Shown: positions 17,335 to 64,000 of the stretch, piece by piece | Layout of the letters: the number at the start of each line of letters is the position of its first letter | Numbering within the stretch: position 1 is the first letter of the stretch | From: Massalongia carnosa | Taxonomy: Eukaryota | Length of the DNA stretch: 64,000 nt | Assembly: GCA_965645245.1 (NCBI GenBank) | Contig: OZ287074.1 | Span: 930,001-994,000, forward strand | Direction: 5' to 3' | Program-made: the position numbers and the translations under genes | The notes under the pieces: model-generated | Seen by the model: only the letters and a program-made list of their open reading frames with translations | Database searches by the model: none | Told to the model about the DNA's origin: nothing

Positions 17335-17652
17335 TGGATTGAGTTATGAGGAGAAGAAGCGTCCGTCTGTGGCGGGTTCTGTACAAAATGTGGTGTTGTA
17401 TAGCTTGATACACCGATACGCGTTGGATGAAGTGGCGTTGGGCAAGTGGGACGCTCTAAGCTCCAAGTGCTGTATAGTGGGTGGATTAGTGGTGGGTAGT
17501 ACAAATAGGGACGCACCTTCTATCGATGGTCCCGATTTCTGGTGATACCTTAATTCTTCGGCGTTCACATCGAGGAAACGACGAGCGAATGTTTGTCGGA
17601 GGGCATTGGGAGGGCATAGGGATATCTAACTTATCGCGTTTTTTGAACAACC

Positions 17653-27113: not shown

Positions 27114-27662
27114 GATATTCTAAGAATAAACCGATATCTCTCAAAGATAATAGATAGGCAATAGCAAGCGTTTGTGATGAATTACGGTATGAAGGTCACT
27201 TACTACTGAGTACATACAGAGTAACATAGCAGGCTAACCACAATGGTTTCGTTGGATGCACGACGATAACGTTGGGTTAGTGGGGGAAACGCGACGTGCA
27301 GGGATAAACAATGACGCGCTTTTCGAGCAAGATCGACAGGCACGAAACTCACCATCCTTCCACCAAATCCCCTGGGTCTCGTAGACGGACATCTCGCCCA
27401 ATCGGTGGACTGGCGCATTGCTATCCAAAATATTCGCATCCTATCTATCCCATCAAGGTCAGAATAGAACCCACAAACAAGCAGGTGTTTTTAGAAATTA
27501 TCTCAATACCTCCACTGGTTGGGGCATCATGCATCCGTTTGTTATCTTGTGATGCACCTCTCATCTTCTTGACATGCGTTGGCCAATTAAGTTGTGCCGA
27601 AAACTAGGAAACGAGGCCCGAATAGACTCACAAACTTGAAACTCCAATTCTTCAGCGTCAAT

Positions 27663-30600
27663 ATGGTAGCCTTTTCTGCACCTCCGCCGCCTCTGTCAAG
27701 TGAGGTCGTCTCACTTTATTACACTAGAGATGCTCTCCTGGAAAATCTACCGGCACTGATATTTTATGGCGCTTCAACAACCGGCAATTCTACCCAAAAT
27801 GGCTCGCGAATCCAAGCGCATATCTATACCCTGGCGGGTTTTCAAAGCTTTCCTCGTTTAACCATATCACCAAGCTCACCTTTATACGCCGCAGTCTACC
27901 ATCTACCTGCCGACCAGCAGGGAGATCAGTTATGTCGTGGGTTGGCAGTAAGTCTGCTGAGTTATTTCGCAGGCATGTCAGAGGCACTAAAGGACTCTCT
28001 CAAAGAGATGGCTGCAAGTCGTCGGCCAAATCGAGTGGCCCCAGCAATGTTCGACGAGATGCATGCAGGAGATGTTGCTTCGAGGATGGTCAAAGTTGAA
28101 GATACAGGAGAGATGATCAGTTCTATCACCGGTGCCCTGAGGGCGCAATCAATTTCTTGGCTCGATGTGGATGTTGTGCTTCCGTCAGAATCAATCCGGC
28201 GAGTCATGGCCACTGAAGCATCAGACCATGCTCCATCTTTCGGTGAAGATGGCCTTCCCCTCTTCCACTACGGCGAGCATGACTCTTTGGTAAACCTGCT
28301 TGGATCACCAACTTTCCTCCCAACATCAAAACTCCGGCGGGCGCCATCAAAACCCACCGCACACTCGAAGAGTAGATCTCTACTCAAAGACCAGAAGATC
28401 GCATTGCGTCAGGAGATGTGCGAACTAGTCGACACAGAAGGGCGTTACCTGGGTAAACTAGACGAGTTGGTTAACTCCATGGCTCTGGGATTTCGCCAAG
28501 GTCTCGAGGGCTCAAGCATCATTGATAAATTGTTCCCGCAAAGCCTTTCTTCCATGCTTCAGGTAAACAAGGATTTCTATGACGATATTCAAGAGATCCT
28601 ACAACTCACGGAGAACGAAGCTATTAGCGATATCGAAGGTGCTGTAAGCGAGGCAGCTGCTATTGGCGGAAGGAAAAGAGATCCCACAGGTATAGCAGCC
28701 TTTGCAAAAACATTGCTGAGGTGGTTTCCGAAATTCACAGGCCCATATCAAGAGTTTATGCGTGCAAGTACCATCTTCCCAAGTATCTTACATAGCTCCC
28801 TTCAAGACACCTCATCAAACTTTTCAAGGCTTGCCACCCAGATTGGCGAACAGCGACTTAGATCCGCCCTTATCGAACCGGTCCAGCGATTGCCTCGGTA
28901 TAGCCTCTTCATCGACAACATGGTGAACCAACTTCCAGCATCCCATCCCGGATTAGCGAACCTTCTGAAGGCGCGGGACATCATCACCGATATTTGTGCT
29001 CTCGACACCAATAGTCTTGCACAAAGTAATCGGACTGTAAGCTTTCTTAAAACTGTCACCAGAAATTGGCCAGCTTCGTTCTCACCTCGGAGCCGGCTCA
29101 TCACTGCTGTGGACGTCCGTGAACTGGCTCCACCATACCAACCGTCTGGAGAAGGCCAAGCGAGTATGCTCCTGCTATTCTCTGAGGCTCTTCTGCTTCT
29201 CAAGAAAACTGATGAGGTTGCGCTGTCTGCAAGAGGCCTTATGACAGAAGTTGATGGCCCCAGCGTTTCAACCATGACAACGCCGTCTCTGAATTCTTGC
29301 GTAGAGAAGGGATTGATATGTGAAAGTGTAATGCCACTTGACAATCTTCAACTGACCGAGTCCGACGACAATAATATGATCTGGGTTACCTGCAGCGAGG
29401 ATGCATCATCGAAAACCGGCCAACATCAGAGCGTCGTCTTCCCACAGCCGATCACCAAGGTATTCTCATTAATAGGTGCTTACGAACGCAAATCGACTCG
29501 CCTTTGTGAGGAAGTAGCGAGAGCTAGGATGGAGGGGCGTTTCCCGGAATCAATGCGAGAAAATGACAAGTGGGCCCTGCGTACTATCAGCACCCCCTTT
29601 GAAAGTTTGTCTATATTAGCAGCAATATGGGAGGGCCCCTCTGCCGATGTTGACAGCATATCTCATGGTCTCAGCCGAACAAGAATCATAGTGGATAAGG
29701 AGGAGTCTTGTAAAGCTTTGCTTGCTAAAAACAAGGAACTAGACATTGTGGCTTCCATCACATCATTTGGCCATGATCATTACCATCTCCGTATAGAATG
29801 TGTCAATGGTGATTGTTCTGCTGATGATACGCTAAGTGACAGCTTGGCTGTTCTGCTTGTCCAAAGATGTATGCCTGTTGAACGAGCACGGTTGATCACG
29901 CTGATTTTCGAGTAGTGGCAGGCCTAATCCGACAGCAAGGCCAGAAGCTAAATGCGTCTCGAATATCGTTTCATCGCAACGTACTTCAGAATTTGCCCAT
30001 TCCAAAGCAGCTACAGGAGTCGCGGCTTCGCAACTTTCGTCCCATTTCCCCTGTGAAGATGCTTTCAAACTTTCTAGGGGGCGGCATAGGCATTCAACCT
30101 GGCAGTCCCACGAAAGCACGCGGCGATTTGCCCACGCTGCAAGGCTCAACCCCATTGCTAAGGCCCCTATCTATGCGTTTCAAGCCTGAAGATTTGCAGC
30201 CAACGGACGACAAGCCATCGAGTAATAAAGTAACGCTGGCAGAAGGACATGAAAGCAAATCCAGCGATACGCTTGCTCTTCTAGAGGACACATTCGCTGC
30301 TTACGTGGACGCCCTACGTTCAAGAAGTGGTAATGTAGTTGGTAAAGTGCTACGAACCCGAGCTGGAGCCGATGAGCTTGTGGTCAACGAACTCTATAAT
30401 ATCCTAGGTATGGCATCCTTATAATCACTAGGTGGGAACTCCTCTTGACACATGTGTAGTTGAAGATCCCTCCAGAATCCAAGCGGCAGCTGAAGTTTCT
30501 GTCGACATTCTGTTTGCCGCTTTTGAAAAGTTCTTGAAGATTGTTTGGAGGGAACGCATGGGTCCACTACTTGCAGCAAATGTCATCAAGAGCATGCAGT

Positions 30601-36161: not shown

Positions 36162-37297
36162 TTATTCCTCCACATCCAGAACATCTTTTCCCTCAAACGA
36201 GGGTTGCGCTCCTGGCAAAGCCGCGGTGCACTCCGTTAAGCTGTTTATGTTGTTCACACCCAACAAACTCAGACGTATATATGCTTTGGAGTAGTCCTAA
36301 GTCGACATCACATTAGTAGGAAGACACATCTCGGAAGGAGCCAAATCACCTCGTTCCAATGAGACTGGTCGTCGATGAAGGACAGCCACTCGCTCCTAAT
36401 GCGGGGATCATTCGATAGCGCGACGTCTGAAGGAAAGACAAACAGCTTTTTGCGAGGGGGTGATTGGATCGTCTCGTTGTAAAACCGCACGTCCCAAACG
36501 GCCGGTGTGGAGTCTTGCGAAGCGCCCACTCGAGTCAGATCTTGAGTGAACTGCTTCGAAGTCGAATGGGCGCCGACGAGTGCAGCCAGATCGTGCGGAA
36601 TAATGGTCTTGTCTTTGAAAAGGTCGATGAGAACCGGGGCGGGGGACTTCATGCTCGGCAACAAGCCGTCAGGTGCCGCCTGCGTGGCGTCTTTTCTTCC
36701 CACGAACGTCCGGACTCGTGGCCCCAGTGGACACGTAACCGTTGCGTGGGTGGAAGCGAACTGCACAAGGTCTGCGAAGCCTACGCCATGCTTGGCCTGA
36801 ACGCTACGTAGCAGCGCGATGATACCTTGTAGTCCATTATTCTCCGGTCTGGCGTTTTCGCCGAAATTCATCACTAGCGACCCATCGGCGCCGCCAAAAT
36901 CTTTGCCGGCTGCCTTGTTGCTTTTGGACCATGTTCCTGCGTCGTGAAATCCTGCCCGGACCGCTGCGCGAGCGTTATCGTTGCAACGGCCACCATGACC
37001 TTTGAAGTTCTTCGTCAATGTCTCCGAGACGGCGTACCAGATGCAGCATGGGTCTTTTTTGCAGGCGTCACCGCGTGGGGCCTCACCACCCTCTTGGCTT
37101 TGTCCAGATCCGGAACCGGTAATAATATCGGCAATGATTTGTCCAACTGGACTCAGCTTGCCCAGAACGAGGTCCCCGATCAGTTCCCTTTGCTCTGAGC
37201 CGTCGTTGGTCCCCGCAGCAGGAGCAGGAACGGCAAAAGCATTGGAGAGATCAAGGAGGATGGAGAACACCACGATATAAACCCTTGAGCCCTTCAT
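36162..37297 (-). CDS. Secreted class II heme peroxidase (generic peroxidase, AA2)
   Basis: Signal peptide MKGSRVYIVVFSILL; CCIW; distal RAGFHDA; GGADGS; CPLGPRVRTFVGRKDA; proximal LVGAHS; DSTP; FPSD. One intron, then DYSKAYIRLSLLGVNN...EE*. Confidence 0.9.
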
Positions 37298-38242: not shown

Positions 38243-39566
38243 CACGCGGGTGACAAAATAAATTGCAACGTGTAAGCGAATTTACCCCTGAATGCCCCAT
38301 CAAAACACCCTCCTTTTTTTCAACTTTTTATCTCATCATCAATGTCTCGACCCAAAAAGCCTCATTATGATACTCCCACAAAGGCCAAAGTTCAAGGAGC
38401 TTATCAATTTCTCATCTCACATGCAATTCCATTCGATCCACGGGCCATTTTTCAGGAATTTGGCGTGGCCGAGCGCGCGGGCTATAACATCATCAAAAGC
38501 GGAGTTTCTTGCACACGTCACAATTCTTCTCTCGTTGAGACTCGGGGTCGAAAGCGAAAGATTAGTGATGATCAGCTGAAGGAGGCAGATCACATTCTGC
38601 AGGATCAAGATCTACAATTGGAAGGAAAACGCTACACATGGGATGCTTTAGCACAGGAGATTGGGGCCGACGTGATGGGACGTACAATGAAGAGAACTCT
38701 TACAGCTGCCTTGAATTATCACAAATTTCTAGCCTGTGTCAAAGGGTGGCTGGCAATGGCATCAGAAGAAAGAAGAGAAGAATTTGCTACAGTTATGTTA
38801 AATAAATATCCTCGGTCCGAAGACTGGCATCGCGTACGATTCAGCGATGAGATTCATTTTGGCTACGGGCCTGAAGGACAGTTACGAATCATTCGTAAGC
38901 CCGGAACAAGATATCGTTGGGATTGTATTCAGCATCGTGATGCACCACCTGAGAAAGATCGTAAAAGAAAGCACTGCTGGGCAGCAGTTGGTTACAATTT
39001 CAAGTCGGATATCTACTTCTACGATGTGCCCAGCAATAGCAATGGAAAAATAACTCATCAGGTGTATATTGACGCTATTCTTGATCCCGTCGTCAAGCCC
39101 TGGTTGGAGCGTGGAGATGACTTCGTACTTGAAGAAGATGGAGACTCTGGTCATGGCACGGGCAAGAGACGAAACGCGGTCAAAAAGTGGAAGTTAGATC
39201 ACGATTTAGAGCACTATTTCAATTGTTCTTCATCTCCTGATCTAGCTCCCATTGAAAATTGCTGGCAGCCCGCAAAGCAGCATGTTCGTAAATTTCCTCA
39301 TTGGGACGATGCAAGTTTGGAGCAGCTGATTAGGGAGGGATGGGCTCGAGTCAGTCAGGAATTTATCAATGAAAGGGTGTTATCCATGCCCAAAAGATTG
39401 AAAGAGGTGAAAGATGCAAAGGGGGCGATGACTGGTTATTGATCTCATGTAATTTAGATGAATTTTATCAGCTATGCAGATGATGGTTGATGATGAGATG
39501 AAAATTTGAATAAAAAAGGGGGGGTAAATTCGCTTACACGTTGCAATTTATTTTGTCACCCGCGTG
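38243..39566 (+). mobile_element. Full-length Tc1/mariner (IS630-Tc1) DNA transposon with perfect 46-bp TIRs
   Basis: TIR CACGCGGGTGACAAAATAAATTGCAACGTGTAAGCGAATTTACCCC at 38243-38288; exact reverse complement at 39521-39566; encloses an intact transposase ORF. Confidence 0.95.
38342..39442 (+). CDS. Tc1-like DDE transposase, 366 aa, DD38E
   Basis: GRKRK motif; VRFSDE (D1); LEEDGDSGH (D2); SPDLAPIENCW (E), with 38 residues counted between D2 and E; no stops or frameshifts. Confidence 0.92.
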   Translation: MSRPKKPHYDTPTKAKVQGAYQFLISHAIPFDPRAIFQEFGVAERAGYNIIKSGVSCTRHNSSLVETRGRKRKISDDQLKEADHILQDQDLQLEGKRYTWDALAQEIGADVMGRTMKRTLTAALNYHKFLACVKGWLAMASEERREEFATVMLNKYPRSEDWHRVRFSDEIHFGYGPEGQLRIIRKPGTRYRWDCIQHRDAPPEKDRKRKHCWAAVGYNFKSDIYFYDVPSNSNGKITHQVYIDAILDPVVKPWLERGDDFVLEEDGDSGHGTGKRRNAVKKWKLDHDLEHYFNCSSSPDLAPIENCWQPAKQHVRKFPHWDDASLEQLIREGWARVSQEFINERVLSMPKRLKEVKDAKGAMTGY

Positions 39567-40086: not shown

Positions 40087-42320
40087 CTAACTAGGTGGAG
40101 GAGGGTAGGTAGCCTTCGTCCTTGTAACTCCCGGGTAGACGAGGCCTTGGGCAAACCTTGCCGAGTACCCGATATCCCTTTTGGCAGCCGTGGTGCCCGT
40201 CTTCGTCACCGGATCCGAGACCGCGGTGTTGCCAATGAAGCTCTGCACCGTGACTGAAGTAGGCTGTGGCGTACTGCGTGCCGAAAGGCTATAGCGTCCG
40301 GGTCCGTCTTTAGCCACCCCCTGGAGGGCGCCGCTATTCAGCCTGAGCTGCATGATGGCCGCAGGGTCAGCGAGATCGACCGTCACGGTTCCGCCCTGCT
40401 TGGGGATCCACGTGAAGCTGTCGATGACGAGATGATCTTTACTAGTTTGGTCCGATGTAATATCGATGCTATCGGTAGCCTTCGTGCCGGACGGGGTGTG
40501 CGTGATGGTGACCTGAAAGGAGCGTAAGACTTGGGCGGGGTCGGCATTCCCCAGGACAGGTAGTTCCAGGGTAGCGGTGGCGGTATTCGCGCCGGTGAGA
40601 GTGATCCCTGCCGTAGGTCCAGCTGTCTGAGCCCATGCGAAGGTTAAATCCCCAGCCCGGATCCCTGGGGCGGTCTGTGCGGCTTTCAGCGTTACGAGAT
40701 TCCCACCTCGAAGGGTTTGATCAGCCCCTGCGTTGGCAGCCACCGTCACATGTCCTGTGAGCGGGGTGATTGTATCAGGACACTGCTTGCTGGGCGTTGG
40801 GGCCGCAGATCCTACGATGAATTAGGCATCTCGACGGATCAACCTCCGAAACGACACTTACCAGGCCATGGGCTCAACTGATGGAAGATGTTGCCTTTTG
40901 CATCAGGCCCAAATCCATTGGCCAGTGGCCCAATTCCGGTGAAATCCAGGGGCCGGGGAGTAGCGCCTGGGGTGATGACTTCGGGGAAAATCCACCCAGT
41001 CACGCGTTGCACGTATTGCCCAGCAAGAATGCTGTCGGAAGTTTTCTGAGTCCCTGAAGCAAAGTTTGATGCGATAATTTCGCGTATACAACCCAATCGA
41101 GGTGCGGTCGGTTCGGAATTCCCATTTCGCTCGTCCGCCCGCGGCTGGCTCGGGCGTCGCATTTCCGATCAGACGGTCTGTCTCGTCTCCCGTGCAGGGA
41201 TCTTGATCGATGGCATATATACGCCGATGGATCCGTCACATGTCCAACGAACTAGATCATTTTTAGACAGTGAGCAAGTCCAAAAACGCAGAAAGGAGAG
41301 GCCGAACACCAACAGAAATCTTCACTCACTATTGCACGTGCAAACTCGGTGTCTGGGGTATTATCGATGATGCCGATGATGGCATCATCGACTCGAATGA
41401 ATCCAGGCGCAGTGCCAGCCTTAGTAAAGATGCCGATATTGACCGTAATGGAGTAACATATAATTTCCTCTCCTACTTTGATGCCAGAGTAGTCGAGGAA
41501 ATCTCCGAATTTCATGGGAGCGAGCCATGTGTAAGGCGTCCGGGACCACGCTGATCTAAGGTTTTAGCATGAGTTTATCGATAGCTAGATAGAAGCCGGC
41601 TTACTGGTTCAGCGGATTGAGGACGTTATTAGGTCGATTAGATTGAGAACACTTTGGGTCGTTTGCGCTGCGAGGAACACACATGGGAAACTCCCCAAAA
41701 CTAGAGATGCTGGGGTTTTCGTTATCAGCGGTAAAAGATGGGATCGCATCATACCCAGCGCTGTATTTGGCATCGGGATCGTTAATGCGGATTGTTGGGC
41801 CGTTCCGGATCTTGATTGCTCCATCCATCCCAAAGGATTCGATGACCCCAGTTGATGCTTGAAGAAAAATCTGAGCGATAGACAACTGTCCCACGATGAT
41901 CTGAGCGATAGACAACTGTCCCACGATGATCTGACCGTTGACAACATTGCCATTGATCTAGATATAGCGTTAGGGAGCAATAAGGCCTCTAATCATGATA
42001 ATGTACCTTACCGAAACTTCGTAAGGGCCTAGACCCCGGTTTCCTGCTGCAAACTCCTTGAACGGGACTTGCAATGCTGGGAACTCCACCAGCAGATTGT
42101 CGGGAATGCGAATCGAGAAGCCATTGACAGAAAAAGTCCCATCAGACCGAACGGAGTCACCGAAAGATACAGCACTTAAGACATGTTCAGACATAATCTG
42201 ATATATACGTAATTTCGAGGCATACTTATCTAGGAAGCCTGTGGTTGAGAACGGCACCACCCGTGCCAAAACTCCCAAGCTCATGGAGCCAAATGTAGTG
42301 CTTAAGAGCAGAAATCCCAT
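40087..42320 (-). pseudogene. Secreted uncharacterised beta-rich protein with a C-terminal PKD/Ig-like domain; frameshifted
   Basis: N-terminal MGFLLLSTTFGSMSLGVLA. Exons encode GTFSVNGFSIRIPDNLLVEFPA, GPTIRINDPDAKYS, TADNENPSISSF, FPMCVPRSANDPKC..NRP, GDFLDYSG, IYAIDQDPCTGDETDR, AGQYVQRVTGWIFPE, FHQLSPWP, and last-exon ANAGADQTL...LTFAWAQTAGP. About 5 GT-AG introns; frameshifts near 41225 and 41063. Confidence 0.7.
41869..41934. repeat. Perfect 30-bp tandem duplication within the coding region
   Basis: ATCTGAGCGATAGACAACTGTCCCACGATG x2 plus ATCTGA; duplicates QIIVGQLSIA. Confidence 0.95.
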
Positions 42321-42836
42321 GTTCGCGCACCGAAAAGGGGTTTAAATTGAGCGGCTACAGGTTCTTTGTCGCCTCGAGAGGAAATGAGATATAACCAAGG
42401 ATCTCGTGAAGAAGAGCCGTGAAATATGAAGACTTGCAGTTCATTCCTTGGAACTCTAGGAGACAGATACCTAACTAGAAAGACGTACGTATAGCTCACT
42501 GAAATCCCATCATACCACACACAACGAGAATCCAATGTACAGCCAAGAAATGGAGCCTGCCTGAATGAAGTGAAGCTACGTATATCGCCCACGATGGGGT
42601 CGCTGAGGTGGTGTAATACATGATACTCTCTCGCCTGTTTGGGATACGAGAGCTTGGCTATGAGAGAGTTTTACAAAAATAGAGCAGCTAACGAAAGAAA
42701 TGCATAGAGTCTAATTCGGAACCTTCCGGTCGGAACAATAAGCCTGGGGGGGGAAATCTCAGTATGAACAGAGCCATGCAATCATCTCAGACTCTAAAGG
42801 ATAGGAAACGGAAAATAGAGTCACGGCATTGATAAA

Positions 42837-42884
42837 GGTGGTTGAGGAGGGTGGTTGAGGAGGGTGGTTGAGGAGGGTGGTTGA
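42837..42884. repeat. 13-bp tandem repeat (GGTGGTTGAGGAG)x3.7 in the divergent intergenic region
   Basis: Three exact units plus a partial one, read directly. Confidence 0.9.
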
Positions 42885-43742
42885 TCGGGGATTTTGCAGA
42901 TGATGGGTCCCCTACCTGCATAACGACCAGCAAGCCTCAATTCATGGGATTCTAATCGAGTCCCCACAAACCTGGAGATACTTCTAGGCTAAAGAATAAA
43001 CCTTTTGGCAATTGGCTGGCTATTGTCAATGGTTGCAGCGTCGTGACTCAGGAGCTAAACCTAATGTCAACGAGTTGTGTGTGCTCCCATATAAACATAA
43101 AAAGCCTCATTTTACAGCCAGATATCTACTCTCGATGGTCCAATAATGTCAACAACAGATATTTCAGGGGATGCTTCGGGTCTTGGCAATGATCACATTG
43201 TGGTAGTGAGGCAGGAAAAAGTATGCCAGGAGTCTCGGACCCCGTTGATACTCGACGGATCTTGCCTTCTCTCGCTTGACCCTGATAGCTTTGGGGGTTG
43301 TTGCGTTTCTACAACGCTTGCCACTGCTGTTAGTTGACTTTATTCATCTTCTATTCAGTCCGAGGCCGCCTGAGAATGCCTATTTCCGTCCTTGATCATC
43401 CTCGATCTAGGGCTTTGAAACATCATGACATTTCTGGTAAGTCACTCCAATGACCCGCAGGAAAGGATGTCCTTCTGTCCGCGGTGACCAACTCGTGCTG
43501 ATGGCGTTTTGAAGGTCGGAATTAGAAATTACGATACTGGAGGTGGTGTAGCCCCAATATTGGAGCCTTGTGAATCTCCTATATATCAGGCTGCTGGATG
43601 AGTAGAGGCTCCTCCCCCATCTCATTTTGCTATGTTCTCTTCAAGCGCCTGAAGGGTGTCTAGCCGTTGAAGAAGTTTCAAACTTCGCATTCTCTTTAAT
43701 CGTCTCTGAGCCACCGCTTTCGTTCGGTAACGAGAGAAGATA

Positions 43743-46043
43743 ATGCCGTGCAGGAACTTGGTCCAGGCTGTGCATTTCAGTCTGCTGCTAGGAGAGGCTT
43801 TGGCGAAGGACTGGCTAAGCCCTATATACAACAAATTCTTCCAGTTCCCTCTCCCGATCCCGCCAGACAAAGTCCCCAAGTTGTAAGCTTGTTAACAGCC
43901 TGAATTCGGCTCTTCAGTTACGTCTATTTAGTTCCTATACAAATGCGTCTACAGGACGAACCATCGATTATTACGAGATCAAGATCAAGCCCCTTCAACA
44001 ACAAGTCTATCCTGACCTGGGCAAAGCAAACCTGGTTGGCTACGATGGCATATCGCCGGGACCTACCTTTCGTTGGAAAAACGAGTTGAAGCAGTCGTTC
44101 GATTCGTCAATCATGCGTCATTGGCCAACTCCGTTCATCTCCATGGATCCTACAGTATGGCCTGTGTTCCAAGCCTCCGTTATCAACGCTGATCATGAAA
44201 CAGGTCATTCCCCTTTTGATAGCTAGGCAGAAGATATAACCGAACCCGGCCATTACAAAGACTACTACTATCCAAATAGTCAGAAGGCACGGACACTCTG
44301 GTATCATGTAAGCCGCGCAACCGTCCGCGTTCAGAATCCTTTCCAGTCGAAGCACTAAATTACCGCAGGATCATGCAATTCATCACACTGCTGAAAACGC
44401 GTACTTTAGCCAAGCTGGATTTTACATTCTCCATGACCCAGCAGCGGACATTGGGCTACCCGGTGGCAAATTCGATGTTCCCCTAGCTCTTGCAGCAAAT
44501 CAGTACCAATCTAATGGCGACCTTTTCTCGCCAGCCAGCGAAACGACCAGTCTCTATGGGGATGTTATCCATGTCAATGGCCAGCCATGGCCATACTTAA
44601 AAGTTGAACCGAGAAAGTACCGCTTCCGCTTTTTGGATACATCAATCAGTCGAGCCTTTAAGTTGTGCTTCGAAGACGACACTAAAGTTGGCACCCAATT
44701 CCATTCCAAGTGGCAGCTTCTGATACCGGATACTTGTCCAAACTAGTCTTATCTTCAACCTGGAAATTCCATGGCGGAGCGCTGGGAGGTCGTGTTCGAC
44801 TTTGCACCATATGCAAATCGGAACGTAACTTTGAAGAATTCGCGCAAAGTCCAAAGCGACGAAGACTTCTTTGGCACAGCCAGGGTGATGAGGTTCGTAG
44901 TTGGAACCACAGTTTCAGACAACTCCAATAATGGAGGACCTCCCTCAACGCTGTCGGTGCTCGACCCCTCTCCCTCAAAAACCACTGTCGACAAGAAGTT
45001 CACCTTTGAGAGAAAGTAAATTAAACCCGCTCATCCGTATCCTGCAATCGGGCTTGTACGCTTAAGTTAATCTGATTATATAAGAACGGCGAATGGACCA
45101 TCAACGGCGTAACATTCTCTCAAGTAGGGAACCATATCCTCGCCAAGCCTCCCCGTGGGACCGTCGAGTTGTGGGAACTCGAGAACAAAAGCGCTGGCTG
45201 GTCACACCCAGTGCACATCCACCTTATCGACTTTCAAATCGTTGAACGTTTCAACGGGCGACCCGTTCTCGAATATGAGGTAAATATTCCTAAACGTTGA
45301 TTGTTCTTCTTTCATCTTATCTTTCTCTTTTGATGATGATTGATTCTTGTACCGATCTGACACCGGCCGAAGGCCGGCCCATGCGGGCTATCTACTTATT
45401 CTTACAGGGAAAACCTTTTAAAAGGATAAAAACCATGCAGACTGCGCCATTATCCCAAACGTGTTCCGTTTCTGGACTGCATTCTTCGCTCGATGTTCTG
45501 TGAAATCCTTGACAAAATGAGAGTTATCACTCGTATAACAGTTGCGATGCTAGTGAAAATTGGGTCAGCAAATTTGCATTTATTATCCATGTGGTTAGTT
45601 TTTTCAACATTTATCTTTCTCTTTTTATATTGCACAAACTAATCTTAAACTAACTGGCAATCTCTACTTACTAGAAATCTGGTCTCAAAGACGTTGTCCT
45701 CCTTGGCAATAACGAACGGGTGCACGTGCTGGCTAAATACGCCCCCTGGGACGGCGTCTACATGTTCCACTGCCACAACCTCATCCACGAGGACCACGAC
45801 ATGACGGCGGCCTTCAACGTCACCGCCCTCGCCGCCGATTTCGGCTACCCGGAAACCACCCACTTCATTGACCCCATGGAGGCCCGCTGGCGCGCCAAAC
45901 CCGAGGATTCTACCAAGTTCACCGAGCAGTTCATCACGCGCGAGCTGCTGCCGGGGTTCGAGGCCTTGAATGCGTATCACGACGTGAAGGGCGTGGAGGA
46001 CGCATTGGATGCGTATTGGAAGCGGAAAGGAGTACAGGTTTAA
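43743..46043 (+). pseudogene. Bilirubin oxidase / CotA-like multicopper oxidase, disabled
   Basis: Signal peptide then WLSPIY..FQFPLPIPP; VYPDLGKANLVGYDGISPGPTF; SVHLHGS; RTLWYH/DHAIH; NGQPWPYLKVEPRKYRFRFLD; WSHPVHIHLIDF; YMFHCHNLIHEDHDM. Frameshift at ~44073, TAG at 44224-44226 (FDGWAED>FDS*AED), more indels at ~44695-44770. Confidence 0.9.
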
Positions 46044-46240: not shown

Positions 46241-48408
46241 TCACCCTTCCACCCTGAACACTACCTCATCAACCAAGCTCCTCAGCACCCTCTCCATCCT
46301 CCCTACATCCTCCTCCCCCACCTCCAACTTCCCCCCCGCATTCCGGCGAAACAACTCCCTCTCCACAGCGACCATGCGCGCAAACCTCGACTCCGCCCCG
46401 TGACTCTTCGCCACATTATCGCTCAACTCTCTCAGTAGCCCAAACGCGACGACGCCCAAGTTCAGCGGCACGTGGTGCAGTAGCGCCAGCACCTCGGCGT
46501 CGCCCTCGTGCGCTAGGTGCGCCAGCTGCGCGGTGAGTTTTAGCAGCACGTACGCGTGCGCCGCGCGCACCGGGTGGAAGGTTGCGGGGAAGTGCACCGG
46601 ATCGATGAGGAAGCGCGTGACGAGGGTGTGGGCGAAGGCCTCGACCCAGTGGCCGGCTGTCAGGAGGGCTAGGACGAGCTCGGCGCGCAGGCGCGCATAG
46701 GGCTGACGGTGGAGCGGGTAGAGGCCTTTTTGCGCGTGGGGAGCGAATTTGGCGAGGGCAGCGCGGAGCGCGGGGATGCGCGCGAGGGGGTCGCGATTGG
46801 AGCGGGCAATGGCGACGTCGGCGGTGGCGTCGAGGGTTGCGAGGATGGGGGGTGGGAGGGCGTTGGTGAGGGCGGGTGGCGGGTCGGGGTTCGTGGGGAA
46901 GAGGGTGCATGGGGTTGGGGCGACGCAGAGGAGACAGGTGCAGGTGAAGAAATAGCGCTTCTGGAGCTCGCGCTGGCGGGTCGGAGGCGGGTCGGTCGCG
47001 TCGATGTAGGAGATGGTAATTTCGCTAGTGGCGGCGATGGGGAGGAGGGAGTGGAGCGAGAGCATGGGACCAGAAAAGGAGAGGGTGCTGTTGGGGCTGC
47101 AGCTGTGGTTTAGGAGAGCAAGGCGCGGAGTTAGGGCCAGGCCTAGAGGGGTGCAGGTGGAGTTGGTGAGGGTATGAGTGTTGATTAAGATCTGATTTGG
47201 GAGCGTTAGGCGGGAGGGATTGGTGTAATTGGAGGATAACCCAAAGGGTGGGAAACGTACCCGCCCGATCAAACTCTCCACTAGCCTTAGATCCTCCTGG
47301 GACTTGGAATATTCCCTCGCCGCCTTGGCCATTAACTGTACGTTCTCCCACGCGCCCGCGCCTTCGGCGGCATATTGGGTTTTGAAGCCCTCCGTGTGAT
47401 GCTGGAGGTTGGTGAAGGAGGACCATTCGGGGTCGAGTAGGAGTTTGTGTTTGCGGCGGAGTAGGAATTGGACGGCCATGCGAACCGTGTTGGGGAGAAG
47501 GTTGGGGTAAAGGCATTTGAAGAGGTTGCATTCGAGTTTGTGGTGGCGCCAGGAGGATTTTTGGCAAGGCTATAAGGGGGTTTGGGCTTGGTCAGTAGAA
47601 GTGACATTGGGGAAGTATGGGTTATGGGGAAAAGGAAGATATAGGTTATAAGAAAACACAGACTGCAAAAGATGAGAGACTTGGAAGAATTTGATCGACT
47701 TCAATCTTCCGTATCCTCTAAAGGAGAACTTACAGGCGGTTATCCTGAATGGTCTTGTGGTTTGTGAATATGGTTGAGATCCATGAATCCAAAAAGATAT
47801 CAATAATATGAGAATATGAGAATATGAAAGAAAAGACAACTCAACCATTTGACAATTGTAAGTAGTGATACGGAATCGGTCATGTGTAGTTTGCAATGTA
47901 TCGTAGAAAAGTCCGAGAAACCACGCTCATATTATGCGGCTCATTATCTTCTGTCGGCCGGGCATTATCCAAACCCAAGAACAATTCAGGTCCTCCCATC
48001 TCATCGCAAACAAAACAAATGACGCCAACTCACCTCCCCACAAAACCTCACCACCCCACAGCCACCACATTTCTTTAGCTGAACAGACTCTACCATCCCT
48101 TCGTCCCCGCCGATCAAGCACCACTCGCACACTCTCGCCAGCTGCGGACTATCAAGCACACATCCCATAGGCCTCTCCACACGCATCACCAGCTCCCCTG
48201 GCCTGATATCTCGTTTCGCAAAGAGGCCGTTGCCTGCAGCGCCGGCATCTTTCACGTATGTGGCCTCTTCATCTGCAAGAGTGGGCTCTGGATCGATCCG
48301 AGAGGAGAAGTTGGGGAGGGAGACCTGGACGTCAAGAAAGCCGTGGTTGGCTGCTAGTTTCTTGATGTCGTTAGCGGCGTTTTGCAGTGCTTGACTGTCC
48401 GCTGGCAT
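46241..48408 (-). CDS. SET and MYND domain (SMYD-like) lysine methyltransferase
   Basis: AGNGLFAKRDIRPGE; MYND CEWC...CGGC....FC / CQKSSWRHHKLEC; LLNHSCSPN; EITISYID; post-SET YFFTCTCLLC. Introns at ~47573-48029 and ~47186-47242. Confidence 0.88.
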
Positions 48409-49171: not shown

Positions 49172-51581
49172 ATCGTCGGCTTGCTTACCTCCGGGATCCG
49201 ACTTGAAAAATGTCGACCGCATTTTAATCGGGGAAAGCGGTTGCATCCCGGAAAGCGGTTGCATCCCCCCAAATTCAAATTTCTTCATCTTTTTGATCAT
49301 TGACCAACAACCACATTGATTAAAAATCAGCCGATACCGTACATAGCTTGAAAATCATCGCCGTCATCATCACCATCGTCAAAATCATTTCCCTTGACTC
49401 CCCTGACCCCCTGACCCTCGTGATTCTCCGCTTACTCCGCATACCCCGCATACCCCGCATTCTAACAATCATTCGCATCTCCTGGTTGAAAAGATGCTTC
49501 CGAATCGAATTCTTTCTAATTTCCTTCTTCGCTTCCTCAGCTATCCATACCTCATTCGTGGCCTTCCATAATGCCTCGGGGTCAGGAATCTTCTCATACA
49601 TCTTAATTGGAATGGGACCGAGCATTTTCTGCATTTCTTTCAGCTGTTTAACTCGATCTCTTTCTGCTTTTCGAGCAGCCAATCCCTTGACATGCATTTC
49701 GTCTCTTTCTATTCGCCATAGCTTCATAAAGCTATTATTCGCTCGTTTCTCCTCAGCCTCTTGATCCTGTTGTAGTCTGATGGCTATAGCCTGCTTTGCA
49801 TCTTCCGCTGTGATTCCCAATCTTCCGGTTTCTGGTCTCAGACGTTTACGAGATATTCGTCTGTTATTTAACTGACTTCTTCTGGATTCTCGATGCATTT
49901 CCAGCTCCGTGCCATCGATAATCGCATTCGAAACAACTTCATTTGTATTGTCTACAAATGAGTCCCATTCCTCAGCCCGAGCGGGATCACTCCATTGCAT
50001 GGATTTTCTGATTTTCGGTCCCCATTGACTCAAACCATACTCAATGTCAGCTACTTTTGTCGGTTGGATTTGACGAGGTAGGGGTAGAGGTAATGAGGGC
50101 TCATTATTCAGACTGTTTAATGAATCATTGGGATCATTGGGATTGAAAATTTTCAGCTGACGAATGCATGCCTTTGGATCAATCGGCCACATTCCCGACT
50201 TTTCAAATGCATGCCGAATCGTAGAAGTCTTGAATGTATGATTTCTGATTTTGGTCAAGTCCTGTATAAATTGAGACAGAGAATACTCGACAAATGACGA
50301 CGCAACGACTTCCTCAATAGCTTTGCAATGCCAATGCTTATAAGGCTGAAATACGCCCACATCCAATGGTTGCATGCAATGAGTTAAATGCGGTATAAAG
50401 GGAAAGGGTCGAATGCGATTCTCATTGGCCAAAAGTGAAAATTCAGGGGTTGTATGACTGCCATGATTATCCATCAGCAATAATTGCCATTCCGCATCAG
50501 GTCCTGCATTTGTATGTTTGATAGATGCTTCAAATATTCAATTGCTATCTTATCAGATGTAAAACCACTGTTCGAGGGCACGACATACGTGCCCTCGGGC
50601 ACACCTTCTAAAAACCATGTGGCCATGATGTCATGACCCTGTACGATGATCATTGGAGGGGGGGGATAGTCGCCGGCAGCATTGATAGTCTCAATAACTG
50701 TCGCAGATCTGCGATTTTCCGGGCTGACGGCGTAGAATTGTTTGATTTCCTCAGGAACAATGATTTCCTGACCCCTCATGCATCCAACCCGAAAACCAGC
50801 TTCATCAAAGTTCAAAATGTTCCGACTTTTTCGAATTTTCAACTCTTTCAACACCTCTCTATACCTTTCAAACCATTCTATCACATCTGATTCTTGGGCA
50901 GCTTCATAACGAATCATTGCTAGTGGTTTTGTCTTTATTTTATGAAGTTTGTTACATTTCCACCAGCTCCGAAACCATCTTCTTGACGGGCCTACCTCGA
51001 GGGGGTTATGGGCCTTTTTCAGACTTACAATAGCCTTGAAAACCATCTGATGTGTAGGAAGAATTCCATGCATCAATAAGGACTTAATAAAGCCAGTAAT
51101 TGACCTTGCCTCATGCTCCCTCAGTATCTGATTTTGTCCTCCATTTTCCTCCCTTCTGGTCGACGAATGGAAGGCGTCAAAGTTTTGACGTTGATATTGT
51201 AGATTCTAGCTGCAGTCGTTTTACTTTCTTTGGGATGATTTGTCAGAAATTCCTTCGCCTTTTCCAATCTTTCCATGGGGTTGAGAGTGGAGACAAGGGA
51301 GGCGTCGTTATCCATGATACGAAAGGGGAGATTGGTTTGGGGGATTGATTCGAGAGGAAAGAATTTGAATTGATGATCAGTTGGGTCGGAGAAATAATTT
51401 TCAAGCTATGTACGGTATCGGCTGATTTTTAATCAATGTGGTTGTTGGTCAATACTCAAAAAGGTGAAGAAATTTGAATTTGGGGGGATGCAACCGCTTT
51501 CCGGGATGCAACCGCTTTCCCCGACTAAAATGCGGTCGACATTTTTTCAAGTCGGATCCCGGAGGTAAGCGAGCCGACGAT
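49172..51581 (-). mobile_element. Fot1/pogo-like DNA transposon with ~185-bp TIRs and a TA target duplication
   Basis: 49172-49355 and 51397-51581 are inverted copies with about 6 differences; TA at 49170-49171 and 51582-51583; each TIR has a tandem GGAAAGCGGTTGCATCCC repeat. Confidence 0.95.
49320..51315 (-). pseudogene. Fot1-type DDE_1 transposase (DD35D), frameshifted
   Basis: HTH AARIYNIN, GGQNQIL (after a shift at ~51145), NFDEAGF, LMDNHGSH (after a shift at ~50522), HCMQPLDVGVFQPYK; 35 residues between D2 and D3. Confidence 0.88.
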
Positions 51582-51976: not shown

Positions 51977-54900
51977 ATGCTGTTGTCCTGGGGTAAGCTG
52001 GCAAAAGGCCGACATCGCCAAGAACCCTCGCCGTTTGTCTCCTCGTTTACCGGTCTTCTATCTTCTCCGGTCGCTGCGAGACCGAGTTCGCTGGAGGAGC
52101 GTGGTCGTCCCACTATTGATTTTGATCGGAATATTCCCCACAGTCTCGATGGCAAGGTTGATGAGGAGCCAGAGGAGGAACAAGAAGATGAGGGCGACGC
52201 AGATAATCTAGACGAGGATGCTGACGAGGATGGGGACGAGGATGGGGACGAGGAAATAACACCGCTATTGCCAATATTCTCTGCAGCTCATCTCGGTAGC
52301 TACTCCTCTCACCCATGTGCCTAGCCATCCTAGCCCCACGTTTGTATTAAGCAATATCAGATTCTTTACCAGTATACCATCTTACGCATGTCATTCGCCT
52401 GTTGGTTGTTCCTCGATGCGACACAACCCTATCATGGGACCAGCTGAGATCACCGCAAGTCTCGCAATTCCTTGTGAAGCCAATCCAACAACAAATCCGC
52501 ACATCTCATTTTTCGAGGGCTACGCTGTACGCATTGATGGCCAACTGTTTACAGTTCACCAAGGAAGTGCAGATGAATCCTGGTAACAGCGGCGCTAGCA
52601 AGACCAGAGCTTTGGTTTGTGAGCTTCTGGCCATTAAACTGCTTAAGGAATTCAGTACGCGTGAATTGGTACGTAATAGAGAACAAAGCATACAGTTGGT
52701 GCCTTGAGCTGACAGATTCTAGATTGGTATGCTTGAGAATTACCCAGCGCGTTCGCAGTCAATTGCACTTACATTAAGAAAACATAGATGCGCTGTCCTA
52801 TGACTTCTTCCCGCTACAAGGTCTCGTCACAGATGGCAGCGGAAATTTAACTCTAGCAACACATTGGGATGCGCCACATAAGGCTAAGTCGCTGCCGCGG
52901 GCAGCCCGTATCTCAACGCTAGAGATAGCCATACGAGCTCAATCCAAGCGGTTTCTTGCCCACCCTCTTGTTGTGCAGCAACTTGAAGCCATTTGGGCCG
53001 GTAGCATTGTATTTCACTCGTCCGCAGACAATTTGCACCGATCTATCGAGAAAATATTGTCGAATCAAAACCGAGGATATGGCACCATGGAATCCACTGG
53101 CCAAGTCTTACCAGCTTCTTTAAATCGCTTGAAACCGGCAAAGCAGCGAGTTGCTCTTGATCCAACGTCATTTTCTATCCGTAGATCAGTAACGCTGTAT
53201 GATCCACGTGACGCATCTCTTTTCAAATTGTCGAGGCTCAGAGTCCCTCGCTATCGACAATTTCTCTCCACATGCTCGTTTGCAATTTTGTTGGGACTTT
53301 ACCTGGCTGTGTTGATCGATCGGTCACTGAATATTACTACTTTAGAGGTGGTTTTCTGGTTCTGGAGTGCCGGGTTTATGCTTGATGAGGTGGTCGGCTT
53401 TAACGAGCAGGGTTTTAGTTTGTACATCATGAGCTTCTGGAACACGTTCGACGTTGGCATTTTGCTCTTACTTGTCGCCTTTTATTCCATGCGACTATGC
53501 GGGATTTTGATGCCGGATGTCCGCAAACATGCCGTAGCGGACATGGCGTACGATCTGCTTGCTTCCAATGCCGTTCTCCTCTTTCCACGGCTCTTTTCTG
53601 TGCTCGATCATTACCGCTATTTCTCGCAGCTCCTAATCGCCTTTCGCATGATGGCCATGGATCTTGTGACGGTTTTCATTCTGATTGTCATCAGCTGCAG
53701 TGGCTTTTTCGTTGCCTTTACCTTATCGTTTGGGAGCAACGACTACGATGCTGGTGGTGTCGCCTATGCGCTTTTCCAAATGCTGATGGGATTCACGCCC
53801 GCTGCGTGGGATTCTTGGGAGAAGTACAATATGCTTGGCAAAGGCATCTTGACGTTGTTCTTGTTCATTTGCCACTTTTTAATTGTAACAATACTGATCA
53901 CAGTCTTGACAAACTCGTTCATGGCAGTTGTGCAAAATGCTAATGAGGAGCATCAATTTGTGTTCGCTGTCAATACAATATCCATGGTGAAATCCGATGC
54001 TCTGTTTTCATATATAGCTCCGACCAATGTGATCGCCTGGTTTCTGACACCGCTACGGTTTCTTCTGCCCTTTCGACAATTTGTCCGAATCAATCGGACG
54101 GTAATTAAGGTGATACATTTTCCAATCCTGTTCCTGATATACGCCTATGAGCGGCTCATTCTTCAAGGAGCCTCATTCGAGCCTACCGATCTTGTTGAGC
54201 AACGCGGTCGTCCAGCCGCAGAAGTGACATTGTTCGAGAGTCGAGGTGGTAAGCTGAGTCTTTTCAGCCCCAGGCAGAACCGACTACGTGAGCCGTCGGT
54301 CGCAACGTTTCATAAAGATAGAGCACTCGAGGAGGTTTTCCGGCGACCATTCAGGGACAATACCATCCGGCAACCCCGTAAAAGCCATGACCATCGCAAG
54401 ACCAGCAACGTGGTGAATACCTGGATGCAGAATATGGGTCCTAATGGGACAGCAAGCCCTCCTGTTGAACAAGATAGAACTATAGTTGACAAGCTAGAGG
54501 CGCGCCGACTTGCACATCGGCAGTCTCAGCTACAGCTCCCAAGGTACAAACCCGGACGTGGCCGTAATTTTACTGAAGCAGCTATATCGGTTATGTCCGA
54601 TCCTGAGGACTTTGTTGGGGGTGGGTATTCGGATCGTCCTATGTATCGTAGGAATACGAGTGATTTGCTGCCGTTGAGTATGGAAGATGTTCCTGAGCAA
54701 ACGGATGCAGACGGAGACGACGGGCTCGTCACCAATGATGAGGACGAGAACATGACATTGGACCGCCAGCCCATAAAAACCCCCGAGACTCGTACAAACG
54801 AACCCAAGGCCAGCGACGACTATTTCCCCCACACACCCACCGCAAAATCCCAAGTGCCACAATTTCCATCATCGTTTACTTCCAACTCTCCCAGAGAACT

Positions 54901-55663
54901 ACCTGTTACTCAGCCTGCTATCGTCCGAAGTGAGATACGGCAGAGTAGTCGCGGTCACGCAACAGACCTTTCCACCAGCACGGCCCTTCATGATCCAGTC
55001 TCTCAGCCCACCGATTTATCCTCATCACCAAATCGCAAGGCCATCACGGCTAAAAACAGCGCAAAGAATACAGGGATCGGAACTGGTGCGATGACACCAG
55101 GTTCCGCAGAAAAGCGTACTCCAAAGCGCCCGGTTCCTGGGCAGACGCGAGCGCGACCAATCATGCCATCACGAACTGCGTTTCAGTCAGTACCGAACCT
55201 TGACAGTATGCTCCTGCTTGATAGTGGCCAAGGAAGAGGATCATCATTCGCCTTGGAGCTTGGCTCGGATATTGGCGATAACAAGGCAGTTGGAGGAGGC
55301 TTTGTCGGGGCAGTTCCATCCAGCTTTGCGACACAGATGGCCTTCGCTACCAGTGCTATGAGAGCTGGGCAAGCCGCCGTTGCTAATGGGAATGAAGATC
55401 AACGGATGATGGGTAAATTGATGCTTGCAAGAATGAACGCTCTAGAGGAAGGGTTTCGGGAGGTACTGAAGGAGGTTAAAGAGTGGAGGAAGGAAGAGAG
55501 CAGAAACGCGGGAGAAGATCGATTAGAGGTCAAGAGCGGTGGAGGTAAAAGCAAGAGGCCTGCTCGAAAGGATGGGAAGGCGAAGGTGACCCCTCAGAGT
55601 CACGGGGTTGAATGGGTTGACGTGCGCGAAGGGCCCGAAGGCGAGAAGGGAAGCTCAGTCTAG
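51977..55663 (+). CDS. TRP-like non-selective cation channel, Yvc1 family paralogue
   Basis: LSWDQLRSPQVSQFLVKP; STLEIAIRAQSKRFLAHPLVVQQLEAIWAG; SRLRVPRY; six hydrophobic helices with SFWNTFD and LITVLTNSF; long disordered C-terminus with a terminal coil. Includes a 4-nt micro-exon. Confidence 0.85.
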
Positions 55664-62953: not shown

Positions 62954-64000
62954 TCACAGCCGGCTTTCGATCCCAGGGAGGACTTGCTCGCCGGGCCAGT
63001 GCGCTTCGGGCCAGACGTGACGGAGGGCTTCCCAAATGTGTCTAATCCGGATGGAGGATGTTAGCGGAGTGCACGTTGTTCCGCTTTTCAGGAAAGCAAA
63101 AAGCGAGGTCGAAGTGAAAACGCAACGATAAATGAAGGAAATACAATATAACGGATCGGGGGAGAAGTACATACCCAACGTGAATGATCTCCAATCCCTC
63201 TCTAACCTCCACTGGCAAATCCCTCACATCCTTTCGGTTGCCAACCGGCAACAACACACTCCTCACCCCGGCCCTCAAGGCCCCAATTAACTTCTCCTTC
63301 ACTCCGCCCACGGGCAACACCCGTCCCCGAAGACTCACCTCCCCGGTCATCGCCAGCAGTGACGGCACCGCCTTTCCGCTAAACAACGATACCAACGCCA
63401 CCGTGTGCGCCAAACCCGCTGAAGGGCCATCTTTTGGAATCGCGCCCGACGGGCAATGCACGTGTACGCTGCGGGCGCGCATGATGTCCTCGGTTGCATC
63501 TTGAGTAAGGCCTAGCTCAAACGCATGCGCCTTGACCCATGAAAGAGCTACCTCGACGCTTTCCTTGAGTACGTCGCCTAGCTTCCCGGTCAGCTGCACG
63601 CGTCCCGTACCCGGCATGTCGGCAACTTCGATGAAAAGGATGCTGCCTTGGCCTCCGGTCGAATAGGCTACGAGGCCTGTGACGACCCCGGGGAGGGTGT
63701 TCTTCTCGGCGATTTCCTCCTCGAAGCGGGGAGTGCCAAGAATGGCGTCGAGATCGGCGAGCGAGACCTGCGGGTTATAGGAGAGGGGCGGGGAGGCGTC
63801 ATTGGATTCGGCGTATTCAACGGCTTTGAAGCGACAGACGGAGCCGATTTCGCGTTCGAGGTTGCGCACCCCAGATTCACGGGTATAGGATGTGATGATT
63901 TCGTCCACGACGGGTTGGGGAAAGGAGACTTGGTTGTCGTCAAGGCCGTTGGTGGCGATTTGCTTAGGGATGAGGTGTTGAATTGCAATGTGGCGCTTTT
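62954..64000 (-). CDS. Peroxisomal Lon protease (LonP2), 3' part
   Basis: [26 protein letters not shown]; catalytic PKDGPSAG (Ser) and GGVKEK (Lys); last exon ends ESRL*, a PTS1 signal. Confidence 0.92.

What the first reader, a model, noticed from the sequence alone, without database searches (positions are those of the whole stretch)
40087..46043. Head-to-head pair of a bilirubin-oxidase-type multicopper oxidase and an uncharacterised secreted PKD-domain protein: candidate two-component extracellular oxidase module
Seen: two genes with signal-peptide-like starts diverge from a 1.4-kb spacer (ATGs at 42320 and 43743). One is a clear BOD/CotA-type MCO. The other has conserved-looking blocks (IRINDP, TADNENPSI, FPMCVPR..DP.C..NRP, DPCTG, QLSPWP) that I cannot assign to any characterised family. 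Known: BOD/CotA-type MCOs oxidise Mn(II) and phenolics, and some bacterial Mn oxidases need partner subunits (Bacillus MnxG with MnxE/F). Inference: the unknown protein is a co-regulated partner (scaffold, metal or mineral binder, or surface anchor) of the fungal MCO.
Basis: partly seen in the sequence, partly recalled or inferred. Interest (0 to 1): 0.8.

Follow-up and report, generated by a model that had tools for sequence, protein, structure and literature searches.

The report
Dead copy of conserved oxidase-partner pair
Two broken fungal genes here are the remains of a gene pair, a secreted copper oxidase and a secreted protein of unknown action, that stays together in many other fungi and has counterparts in bacterial oxidase clusters, which points to an overlooked helper of outside-the-cell oxidation, possibly of manganese.

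Summary
The head-to-head pair is real, but both genes are pseudogenes here. The lesions are in the short-read contigs and in an independent lichen run, while a secreted haem peroxidase 2.8 kb away looks intact.

The unknown gene (U) belongs to the family of Verticillium VDAG_07742: two OB-like barrels, a further beta domain and an Ig/PKD tail.

U lies beside a bilirubin-oxidase (BOD) gene in 8 of 14 named fungal genera and head-to-head in 8 of 15 distinct fungal metagenome loci. In V. dahliae the neighbour VDAG_07741 is the BOD, and both proteins rise in one proteome comparison.

Bacterial U homologues sit by MnxG-like or other multicopper oxidases (13 of 20 loci) and MauG-type haem peroxidases (12 of 20). 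Four fungal loci also carry the window's peroxidase.

Best reading: U is a non-catalytic pathway partner handling the product of extracellular one-electron oxidases, most likely Mn(III)/Mn oxide. Binding, Mn activity and mechanism are not shown, and linkage is not universal.

The parts
40087..42320 (-). Pseudogene of the secreted U / VDAG_07742-family protein; six exons (42320-42226, 42174-42012, 41957-41605, 41550-41330, 41251-40862, 40811-40087); three frameshifts (near 41524, 41223, 41062) and one in-frame 30-nt duplication
   Evidence: tblastn with intact homologues; splice sites read by eye and located; lesions present in read contigs
42321..43742 (.). 1,422-bp divergent spacer, presumed shared promoter region
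   Evidence: sequence; 2.0-3.4 kb separate the two matches in 8 linked fungal loci; promoter function is inference
43743..46043 (+). Pseudogene of a bilirubin-oxidase-type multicopper oxidase; six exons (43743-43882, 43932-44154, 44204-44307, 44369-45015, 45085-45279, 45675-46043); three frameshifts and one in-frame stop (44224-44226)
   Evidence: Pfam Cu-oxidase hits; pieces 58-72% identical to P0228, which matches Myrothecium-type BOD structure 2xll at E 3.9e-199; copper motifs
45331..45612 (.). 282-bp repeat inserted in the last BOD intron, flanked by a 15-bp direct repeat; other copies run on beyond it, so probably a truncated retro-element
   Evidence: 40 scored of 461 candidate places in the genome, 97-100% identical; flanking duplication and longer copies; depth over 100-fold background
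36164..37297 (-). Intact-looking secreted class II-type haem peroxidase, two exons; probable third member of the ancestral cluster
   Evidence: PF00141; closest solved relatives are fungal class II peroxidases, E 1.5e-36; homologue beside BOD+U in L028, L048, L070, L083 and in none of the other 98 loci
38243..39566 (+). Tc1/mariner-type transposon with 46-bp terminal inverted repeats and an open 388-aa DDE_3 frame, between U and the peroxidase

Best explanation
The locus is the decayed remnant of a conserved secreted redox module: BOD-type oxidase + U, with a haem peroxidase in some lineages. SHOWN: both genes are pseudogenes here; intact homologues are linked in many fungi; bacterial U sits in operons with multicopper oxidases, MauG-type peroxidases, SCO1 and cytochrome c; U has an all-beta core with conserved Asp/Glu/Asn and a Cys pair but no conserved His or Trp. 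INFERRED: U is co-secreted with the oxidase and is not itself an oxidase. It works on the product side of one-electron oxidation: its carboxylate-rich core binds Mn(II)/Mn(III) or nascent Mn oxide and holds the reaction at the wall or matrix through its Ig/PKD tail, as a dirigent protein steers radicals made by either laccase or peroxidase. The peroxidase would remove H2O2 that re-reduces Mn oxide (recalled chemistry). Any contact with BOD is probably loose. The module became dispensable in this, probably lichen-forming, fungus. My odds: functional coupling to extracellular oxidases about 0.85; manganese as main substrate about 0.55.
For: Adjacent or one-apart tags/accessions in 8 of 14 genera with both proteins listed. 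BOD upstream on the opposite strand in 8 of 15 distinct fungal loci with >=2.9 kb upstream, never in another arrangement. VDAG_07741 (BOD) up 2.74-fold and VDAG_07742 up 5.4-fold among 181 of 2,031 proteins (PMC9965449). Bacteria: oxidase in 13 of 20, di-haem peroxidase in 12 of 20, either in 17 of 20 distinct loci >=9 kb, against about 2% per 15 kb from 38 PF07731 matches in 25.1 Mb. Five neighbours match MnxG model NF041487 at E<=1e-216, all below its cut-off. A randomly drawn genome (G461) also has U ending an mnxG-like/SCO operon. Pseudomonas: MnxG in 13 of 17 U-bearing vs 83 of 284 other genomes, Fisher p 1.3e-4. Ascomycete BODs are reported Mn(II) oxidases (PMC7902709). Both genes decayed while the neighbouring peroxidase stayed open.
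Against: No BOD upstream in 7 of 15 fungal loci, and the two proteins lie on different contigs in 5 of 14 genera (other BOD paralogues unseen, only 120 of 628 hits listed). 83 of 96 MnxG-bearing Pseudomonas genomes lack U with this query, so U is not required for MnxG. None of 8 further Pseudomonas U loci has an oxidase within 8 kb; 6 have the haem peroxidase instead. 3 of 20 bacterial loci and G737 have neither enzyme. None of the 8 unannotated rows in the Mn-oxidising native-gel table of PMC7902709 is recognisably U. The VDAG_07742 knockout phenotype is loss of penetration; 'manganese' does not occur in that paper's main text. VDAG_07738 is also up, so the induction may be regional. Loci and genomes are related, so counts and p values overstate independence. 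Metal binding by U was not tested.
Confidence: 0.5

Rival explanations
1. The same module acts on phenolics or aromatic amines, not manganese: BOD and peroxidase make radicals and U steers their coupling or cross-links them into the wall, which stiffens penetrating hyphae.
For: The VDAG_07742 knockout cannot penetrate cellulose membrane. Most bacterial oxidase neighbours score weakly to CueO/PhsA models rather than MnxG. The fungal peroxidase appears to lack the manganese-peroxidase acid triad (by eye, positions recalled).
Against: MnxG-like neighbours in 5 of 20 bacterial loci plus G461, and enrichment with MnxG in Pseudomonas. Knockout colony colour was unchanged.
Confidence: 0.25
2. U is a stable subunit or maturation factor of the oxidase, for example a copper-loading or activating partner.
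For: Divergent pairing and joint loss; SCO1 neighbours in 5 of 20 bacterial loci; OB-like barrels with faint CusF hits in 4 of 68 members, best E 0.012.
Against: Partners are unrelated folds; no His is conserved in 80% of members; Myrothecium-type BOD structures are solved without such a chain (profile search found no U-core chain in the PDB); linkage is missing in half of fungal loci.
Confidence: 0.15
3. U is itself an enzyme or metal-binding protein whose cofactor is made by its neighbour, as MauG and MbnH modify their partner proteins (recalled).
For: A MauG/MbnH-like di-haem enzyme is the most direct neighbour in many bacteria; Cys, Met and two Tyr are conserved.
Against: No Trp is conserved; fungi have no di-haem neighbour in the loci read; the hit to the MbnH model is far below cut-off (150 vs 363 bits).
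Confidence: 0.06
4. The linkage is inherited gene order without functional coupling, and the two genes decayed independently.
For: Linkage is lost in several lineages; all fungal U sequences fall on one side of one branch, so the pairing may be a single old event.
Against: The pair is kept across Sordariomycetes, Dothideomycetes and Pseudogymnoascus while other window neighbours are not seen beside it apart from the peroxidase (top 40 rows read); bacteria show the same kind of neighbourhood with different oxidases.
Confidence: 0.04

Closest known systems
Verticillium dahliae VDAG_07742 (PMC9965449)
   Same: Same protein family: a window exon hits P0009 at 62% identity, E 1e-27, whose 90% cluster holds VDAG_07742. 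Secreted; neighbour VDAG_07741 is a bilirubin oxidase.
   Different: The passages read report only a penetration/pathogenicity phenotype and do not link the gene to the BOD or to manganese. The window's copy is broken and carries an extra PKD domain.
Myrothecium-type bilirubin oxidase and the Mn(II)-oxidising BODs of Acremonium and Paraconiothyrium (PMC7902709)
   Same: Same oxidase subfamily with all copper ligands.
   Different: Described as single enzymes with no partner gene in the passages read; here a pseudogene.
Bacillus Mnx complex (MnxG + MnxE3F3; PMC13689576)
   Same: A multicopper Mn oxidase with a neighbouring accessory protein; the review calls accessory needs of other Mn oxidases an open question.
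   Different: MnxE/F are small proteins forming a hexamer; U is 500-1,000 residues, multi-domain, and no sequence match to them appeared.
Fungal Fet3/Ftr1 pair (PMC3129052)
   Same: A fungal multicopper oxidase gene adjacent to the gene of the protein that takes its oxidised-metal product.
   Different: Ftr1 is a membrane permease for iron; U is a soluble, all-beta secreted protein.
Plant dirigent proteins (recalled)
   Same: Non-catalytic secreted beta proteins that handle radicals produced by either laccases or peroxidases; a working analogy only.
   Different: No sequence or fold match was listed; not gene-linked to their oxidases as far as I recall.

Membership tests
BOD/CotA-type multicopper oxidase | Four His-rich copper motifs with axial Met | tested here: met
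   HLHG 44136, WYH|DH across the 44308 intron, HPVHIH 45205, HCHNLIHEDHDM 45768
BOD/CotA-type multicopper oxidase | Closest to fungal BOD rather than laccase, Fet3 or ascorbate oxidase | tested here: met
   one search hits named bilirubin oxidase/cupredoxin; proxy P0228 vs 2xll E 3.9e-199, CotA 1e-65
BOD/CotA-type multicopper oxidase | Intact reading frame | tested here: not met
   three frameshifts and a stop, present in read contigs
BOD/CotA-type multicopper oxidase | Oxidises bilirubin or Mn(II) | not testable with these tools
   needs an assay on an intact homologue
VDAG_07742 family | Homology over the whole core (RINDP, DxNPS, FPMCVPR, DPCTG, PxP blocks) | tested here: met
PKD-domain protein | PF22352 K319L-like PKD domain | tested here: met
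   over cut-off in P0007, 30 of 68 members at E<=1; absent from many sordariomycete members, so optional; window exon itself no hit
Bacillus Mnx complex (MnxE/F-type subunit) | Small accessory subunits forming a hexameric cap | tested here: not met
   U members are about 500-1,000 residues; MnxE/F described as small
Bacillus Mnx complex (MnxE/F-type subunit) | Shared fold with MnxE/F | tested here: inconclusive
   not listed in the fold searches, which does not exclude it
Bacillus Mnx complex (MnxE/F-type subunit) | Stable physical complex with the oxidase | not testable with these tools
Fet3/Ftr1-type oxidase-permease pair | Partner is a multi-pass membrane transporter | tested here: not met
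   models are all-beta and soluble; VDAG_07742 reported without a transmembrane domain
MauG/MbnH substrate proteins (Trp-derived cofactor; recalled) | Invariant Trp to be modified | tested here: not met
   no Trp at 80% conservation across 68 rows
OB-fold / DUF5666 / CusF-like | OB barrel | tested here: inconclusive
   best Z 7.3, rmsd 2.7, 76 aligned (3f2b) for residues 114-276; Z 6.0 for 11-113; DUF5666 in 10 of 68 members, best E 0.0034; middling scores

The most novel reading that the evidence does not exclude
U defines an unrecognised accessory family of microbial manganese oxidation shared by bacteria and fungi: a secreted protein that captures Mn(III) or nucleates Mn oxide for whichever oxidase makes it. 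The trio multicopper oxidase + haem peroxidase + U was assembled in both domains from unrelated peroxidases, and the Verticillium penetration defect is a defect in this extracellular redox chemistry.
Probability: 0.3. Interest if true: 0.85.

Novelty: new variant of a known kind. Interest (0 to 1): 0.6.

Why it matters
[quoted passage not shown] This family gives one concrete candidate in both fungi and bacteria, testable in Sordaria and Pseudomonas, and a biochemical lead for a knockout phenotype that has none (VDAG_07742). My 9 answered literature searches (less none; one search failed) found no paper linking the two genes, but the library lacks most subscription journals. The window's own copy matters only as a natural joint loss.

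Tried and rejected
Assembly error as the cause of the frameshifts: rejected. X1/X2 may be the source data; X4 is from another study; X5 covers only scraps.

Selection test on X4 differences: 11 non-synonymous and 7 synonymous among 18 coding SNPs, pN/pS 0.49. Neutrality is not rejected (p 0.16), omega 0.1 is (p 0.001); small sample, no control gene, and one 9-codon piece without SNPs was off frame.

No RNA holder was listed, so expression here is untested.

Complex prediction of U with BOD was not available; no verdict.

Fold searches: the full-length model gave only Ig/PKD matches; the core model (pLDDT 90.9, pTM 0.90) gave no Foldseek hit at E<=0.001. MnxE/F, dirigent and CusF were not listed. 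The third core domain was barely tested.

Pfam, NCBIfam and PDB profile searches gave nothing for the core. Atlas: top cluster is probably the family's own, auto-named beta-1,3-glucanase N-terminal domain, with no Pfam; no usable named hit. I do not adopt that name.

My recalled lead that U equals P. putida GB-1 PputGB1_2552/2553 found no paper and is dropped.

Broad bacterial co-occurrence could not be tested: U was found in only 1 of 400 and 1 of 250 sampled genomes besides the centres.

The maximum-likelihood tree timed out; the FastTree tree is unrooted, so no transfer direction is claimed.

L052 was left out of the fungal count (kingdom unclear, no BOD in 2,995 bp).

Full report
OBSERVATION. 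The window is part of a 52-Mb, 25-contig fungal genome. A run labelled lichen metagenome holds 82% of the region's words, so the host is probably lichen-forming; I did not identify it further. Two genes diverge from a 1,422-bp spacer. The plus-strand gene is a bilirubin-oxidase-type multicopper oxidase with all copper motifs. The minus-strand gene, U, aligns over its length with 520-650-residue fungal proteins.

BOTH ARE PSEUDOGENES. U has three frameshifts. BOD has three frameshifts, an in-frame stop and a 282-bp high-copy repeat in its last intron. Contigs of X1 and X2 agree with the window. X4, from another study, differs by 22 substitutions outside the repeat, shares every lesion and adds an 8-nt deletion in BOD exon 3. 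The coding differences are 11 non-synonymous and 7 synonymous (pN/pS 0.49), compatible with relaxed selection but a small sample. No second copy of either gene was found, though other Cu-oxidase genes exist (19 PF07731 matches). A secreted class II-type peroxidase 2.8 kb beyond U, across a Tc1/mariner element, looks intact, and other window genes keep long open frames. The decay is therefore specific to the pair.

WHAT U IS. A model of a bacterial core-only member is confident (pLDDT 90.9, pTM 0.90). It shows two OB-like barrels (best Z 7.3, rmsd 2.7, 76 aligned; middling) and a further beta domain with no clear match. Fungal members add an optional PKD domain and a terminal Ig-like domain. 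Residues conserved in at least 80% of 68 rows are mostly Asp, Glu, Asn and Arg, with two Cys, one Met and two Tyr, and no His or Trp. That fits carboxylate metal or mineral binding better than a copper site; this is inference. In a FastTree tree the 30 ascomycete-like rows, 3 named basidiomycete rows and 3 unnamed rows lie on one side of a branch against 32 rows that include all bacterial loci. The family includes V. dahliae VDAG_07742, a secreted protein whose knockout loses penetration and pathogenicity (PMC9965449; I read parts 1-2 of 7, searched passages and supplement rows).

LINKAGE IN FUNGI. Fourteen genera had both proteins in my lists. Eight show adjacent or one-apart tags or accessions: Apiospora, Microdochium, Xylariales PMI_506, Lasiosphaeria, Lasiosphaeris, Sordaria, Pseudogymnoascus and Verticillium. 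Colletotrichum is unresolved. Five lie on different contigs: Tothia, Massariosphaeria, Paraphoma, Coleophoma, Oleoguttula; only 120 of 628 BOD hits were listed, so a linked paralogue may be unseen. Of 80 metagenome loci kept from 111, 22 were fungal with at least 2.9 kb upstream, forming 15 groups; 22 were bacterial and 36 too short or unclear. Eight of the 15 groups have BOD head-to-head and 7 have none. Four of the linked loci also carry the window's peroxidase, and none of the other 98 loci does. Those four are related sequences from two datasets, so they are not independent. In V. dahliae both genes' proteins are among the 181 up-regulated of 2,031 (2.74- and 5.4-fold), but so is VDAG_07738.

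LINKAGE IN BACTERIA. 44 loci form 34 groups, 20 of them at least 9 kb long. Thirteen have a multicopper oxidase, 12 a MauG-type di-haem peroxidase, 17 either, 8 both and 5 SCO1 (labels). Background is about 2% per 15 kb. Five neighbours match the MnxG model strongly but below cut-off; six others resemble CueO/PhsA models weakly. Of two further hits from random samples, G461 ends an mnxG-like operon and G737 has neither enzyme. In 301 Pseudomonas genomes U occurs in 17 and MnxG in 96; 13 of the 17 have MnxG (p 1.3e-4, not tree-corrected). These counts include unpublished genomes G156 and G104; without them 12 of 16 vs 82 of 283, p 3e-4. In 8 more Pseudomonas loci U has no oxidase within 8 kb and faces the di-haem peroxidase in 6.

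MECHANISM. U keeps company with four unrelated oxidising enzymes. A fixed subunit would need to bind them all, whereas a protein acting on their common product would not. I therefore read U as a co-secreted, non-catalytic partner on the product side, most likely binding Mn(III) or nascent Mn oxide and tethering the reaction by its Ig/PKD tail. Manganese is favoured by the MnxG-like operons and by reports that ascomycete BODs oxidise Mn(II) (PMC7902709, passages). Against: U is absent from most MnxG-bearing pseudomonads, and none of the 8 unannotated rows of the Mn-oxidising gel-band table is recognisably U (I saw only rows matching my terms, and U could stand under another name). A phenolic-coupling role is the main rival and fits the penetration defect. 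Binding to BOD could not be modelled, so it stays open.

NOVELTY. The oxidase is a known kind and oxidase-plus-partner pairs are known (Fet3/Ftr1, PMC3129052 passages; Mnx, PMC13689576 passages). I found no paper linking this family to an oxidase in ten answered searches; subscription journals are largely missing from the library. Other papers seen as passages only, without bearing: PMC13631088, PMC9765421, PMC13386937, PMC8218464, PMC13403910. Dirigent proteins, MauG/MbnH chemistry, H2O2 reduction of Mn oxide and manganese-peroxidase ligand positions are recalled, not from calls.

VERDICT. A real and conserved module, dead in this genome, with good evidence of functional coupling and an unproven manganese mechanism. 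New variant of a known kind; interest 0.6.

Noticed in passing
window 45331-45612; L112, L113: Young high-copy repeat (461 candidate places; 40 scored at 97-100%) with a microsatellite-like end and a 15-bp flanking duplication; other copies extend about 360 bp further, suggesting a recently active SINE or truncated LINE.
   Followed up: partly
window 38243-39566: Tc1/mariner element with perfect 46-bp terminal inverted repeats and an open transposase frame; possibly still active.
   Followed up: partly
window 36164-37297: Secreted class II-type haem peroxidase, intact-looking; a 41-44% identical paralogue lies on contig C18.
   Followed up: yes
window about 2435-2596 (G000:C8:932435-932596, minus): A second, weak Cu-oxidase_2 match within this window (E 7.7e-6); not examined.
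   Followed up: no
window 49323-50537: DDE_1 (pogo/Fot1-type) transposase frame.
   Followed up: no
L004-L006, L116-L120, L122: In Pseudomonas, U and a MauG-type di-haem peroxidase form their own head-to-head pair; in L004 it lies between acyl-CoA dehydrogenase genes near biotin genes, and U occurs in only 17 of 301 genomes.
   Followed up: partly
L007, L009, L018: Tandem copies of U (two or three per locus) in acidobacterial and actinomycete genomes; L009 and L018 show no oxidase nearby.
   Followed up: no
P0301, P0314, P0323: U homologues in Agaricales (Pleurotus, Mycena, Flagelloscypha); their gene neighbours were not examined.
   Followed up: no
L089 6227-9345: Indoleamine 2,3-dioxygenase-family and outer-membrane beta-barrel genes upstream of the U-mnxG-like operon.
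   Followed up: no
window 5143-7577, 13907-17343, 27591-29912, 46244-47569, 52778-55660, 63045-63998: Ordinary fungal genes: Het-C, importin-9, Bud3, SET-domain protein, YVC1 channel, Lon protease.
   Followed up: no
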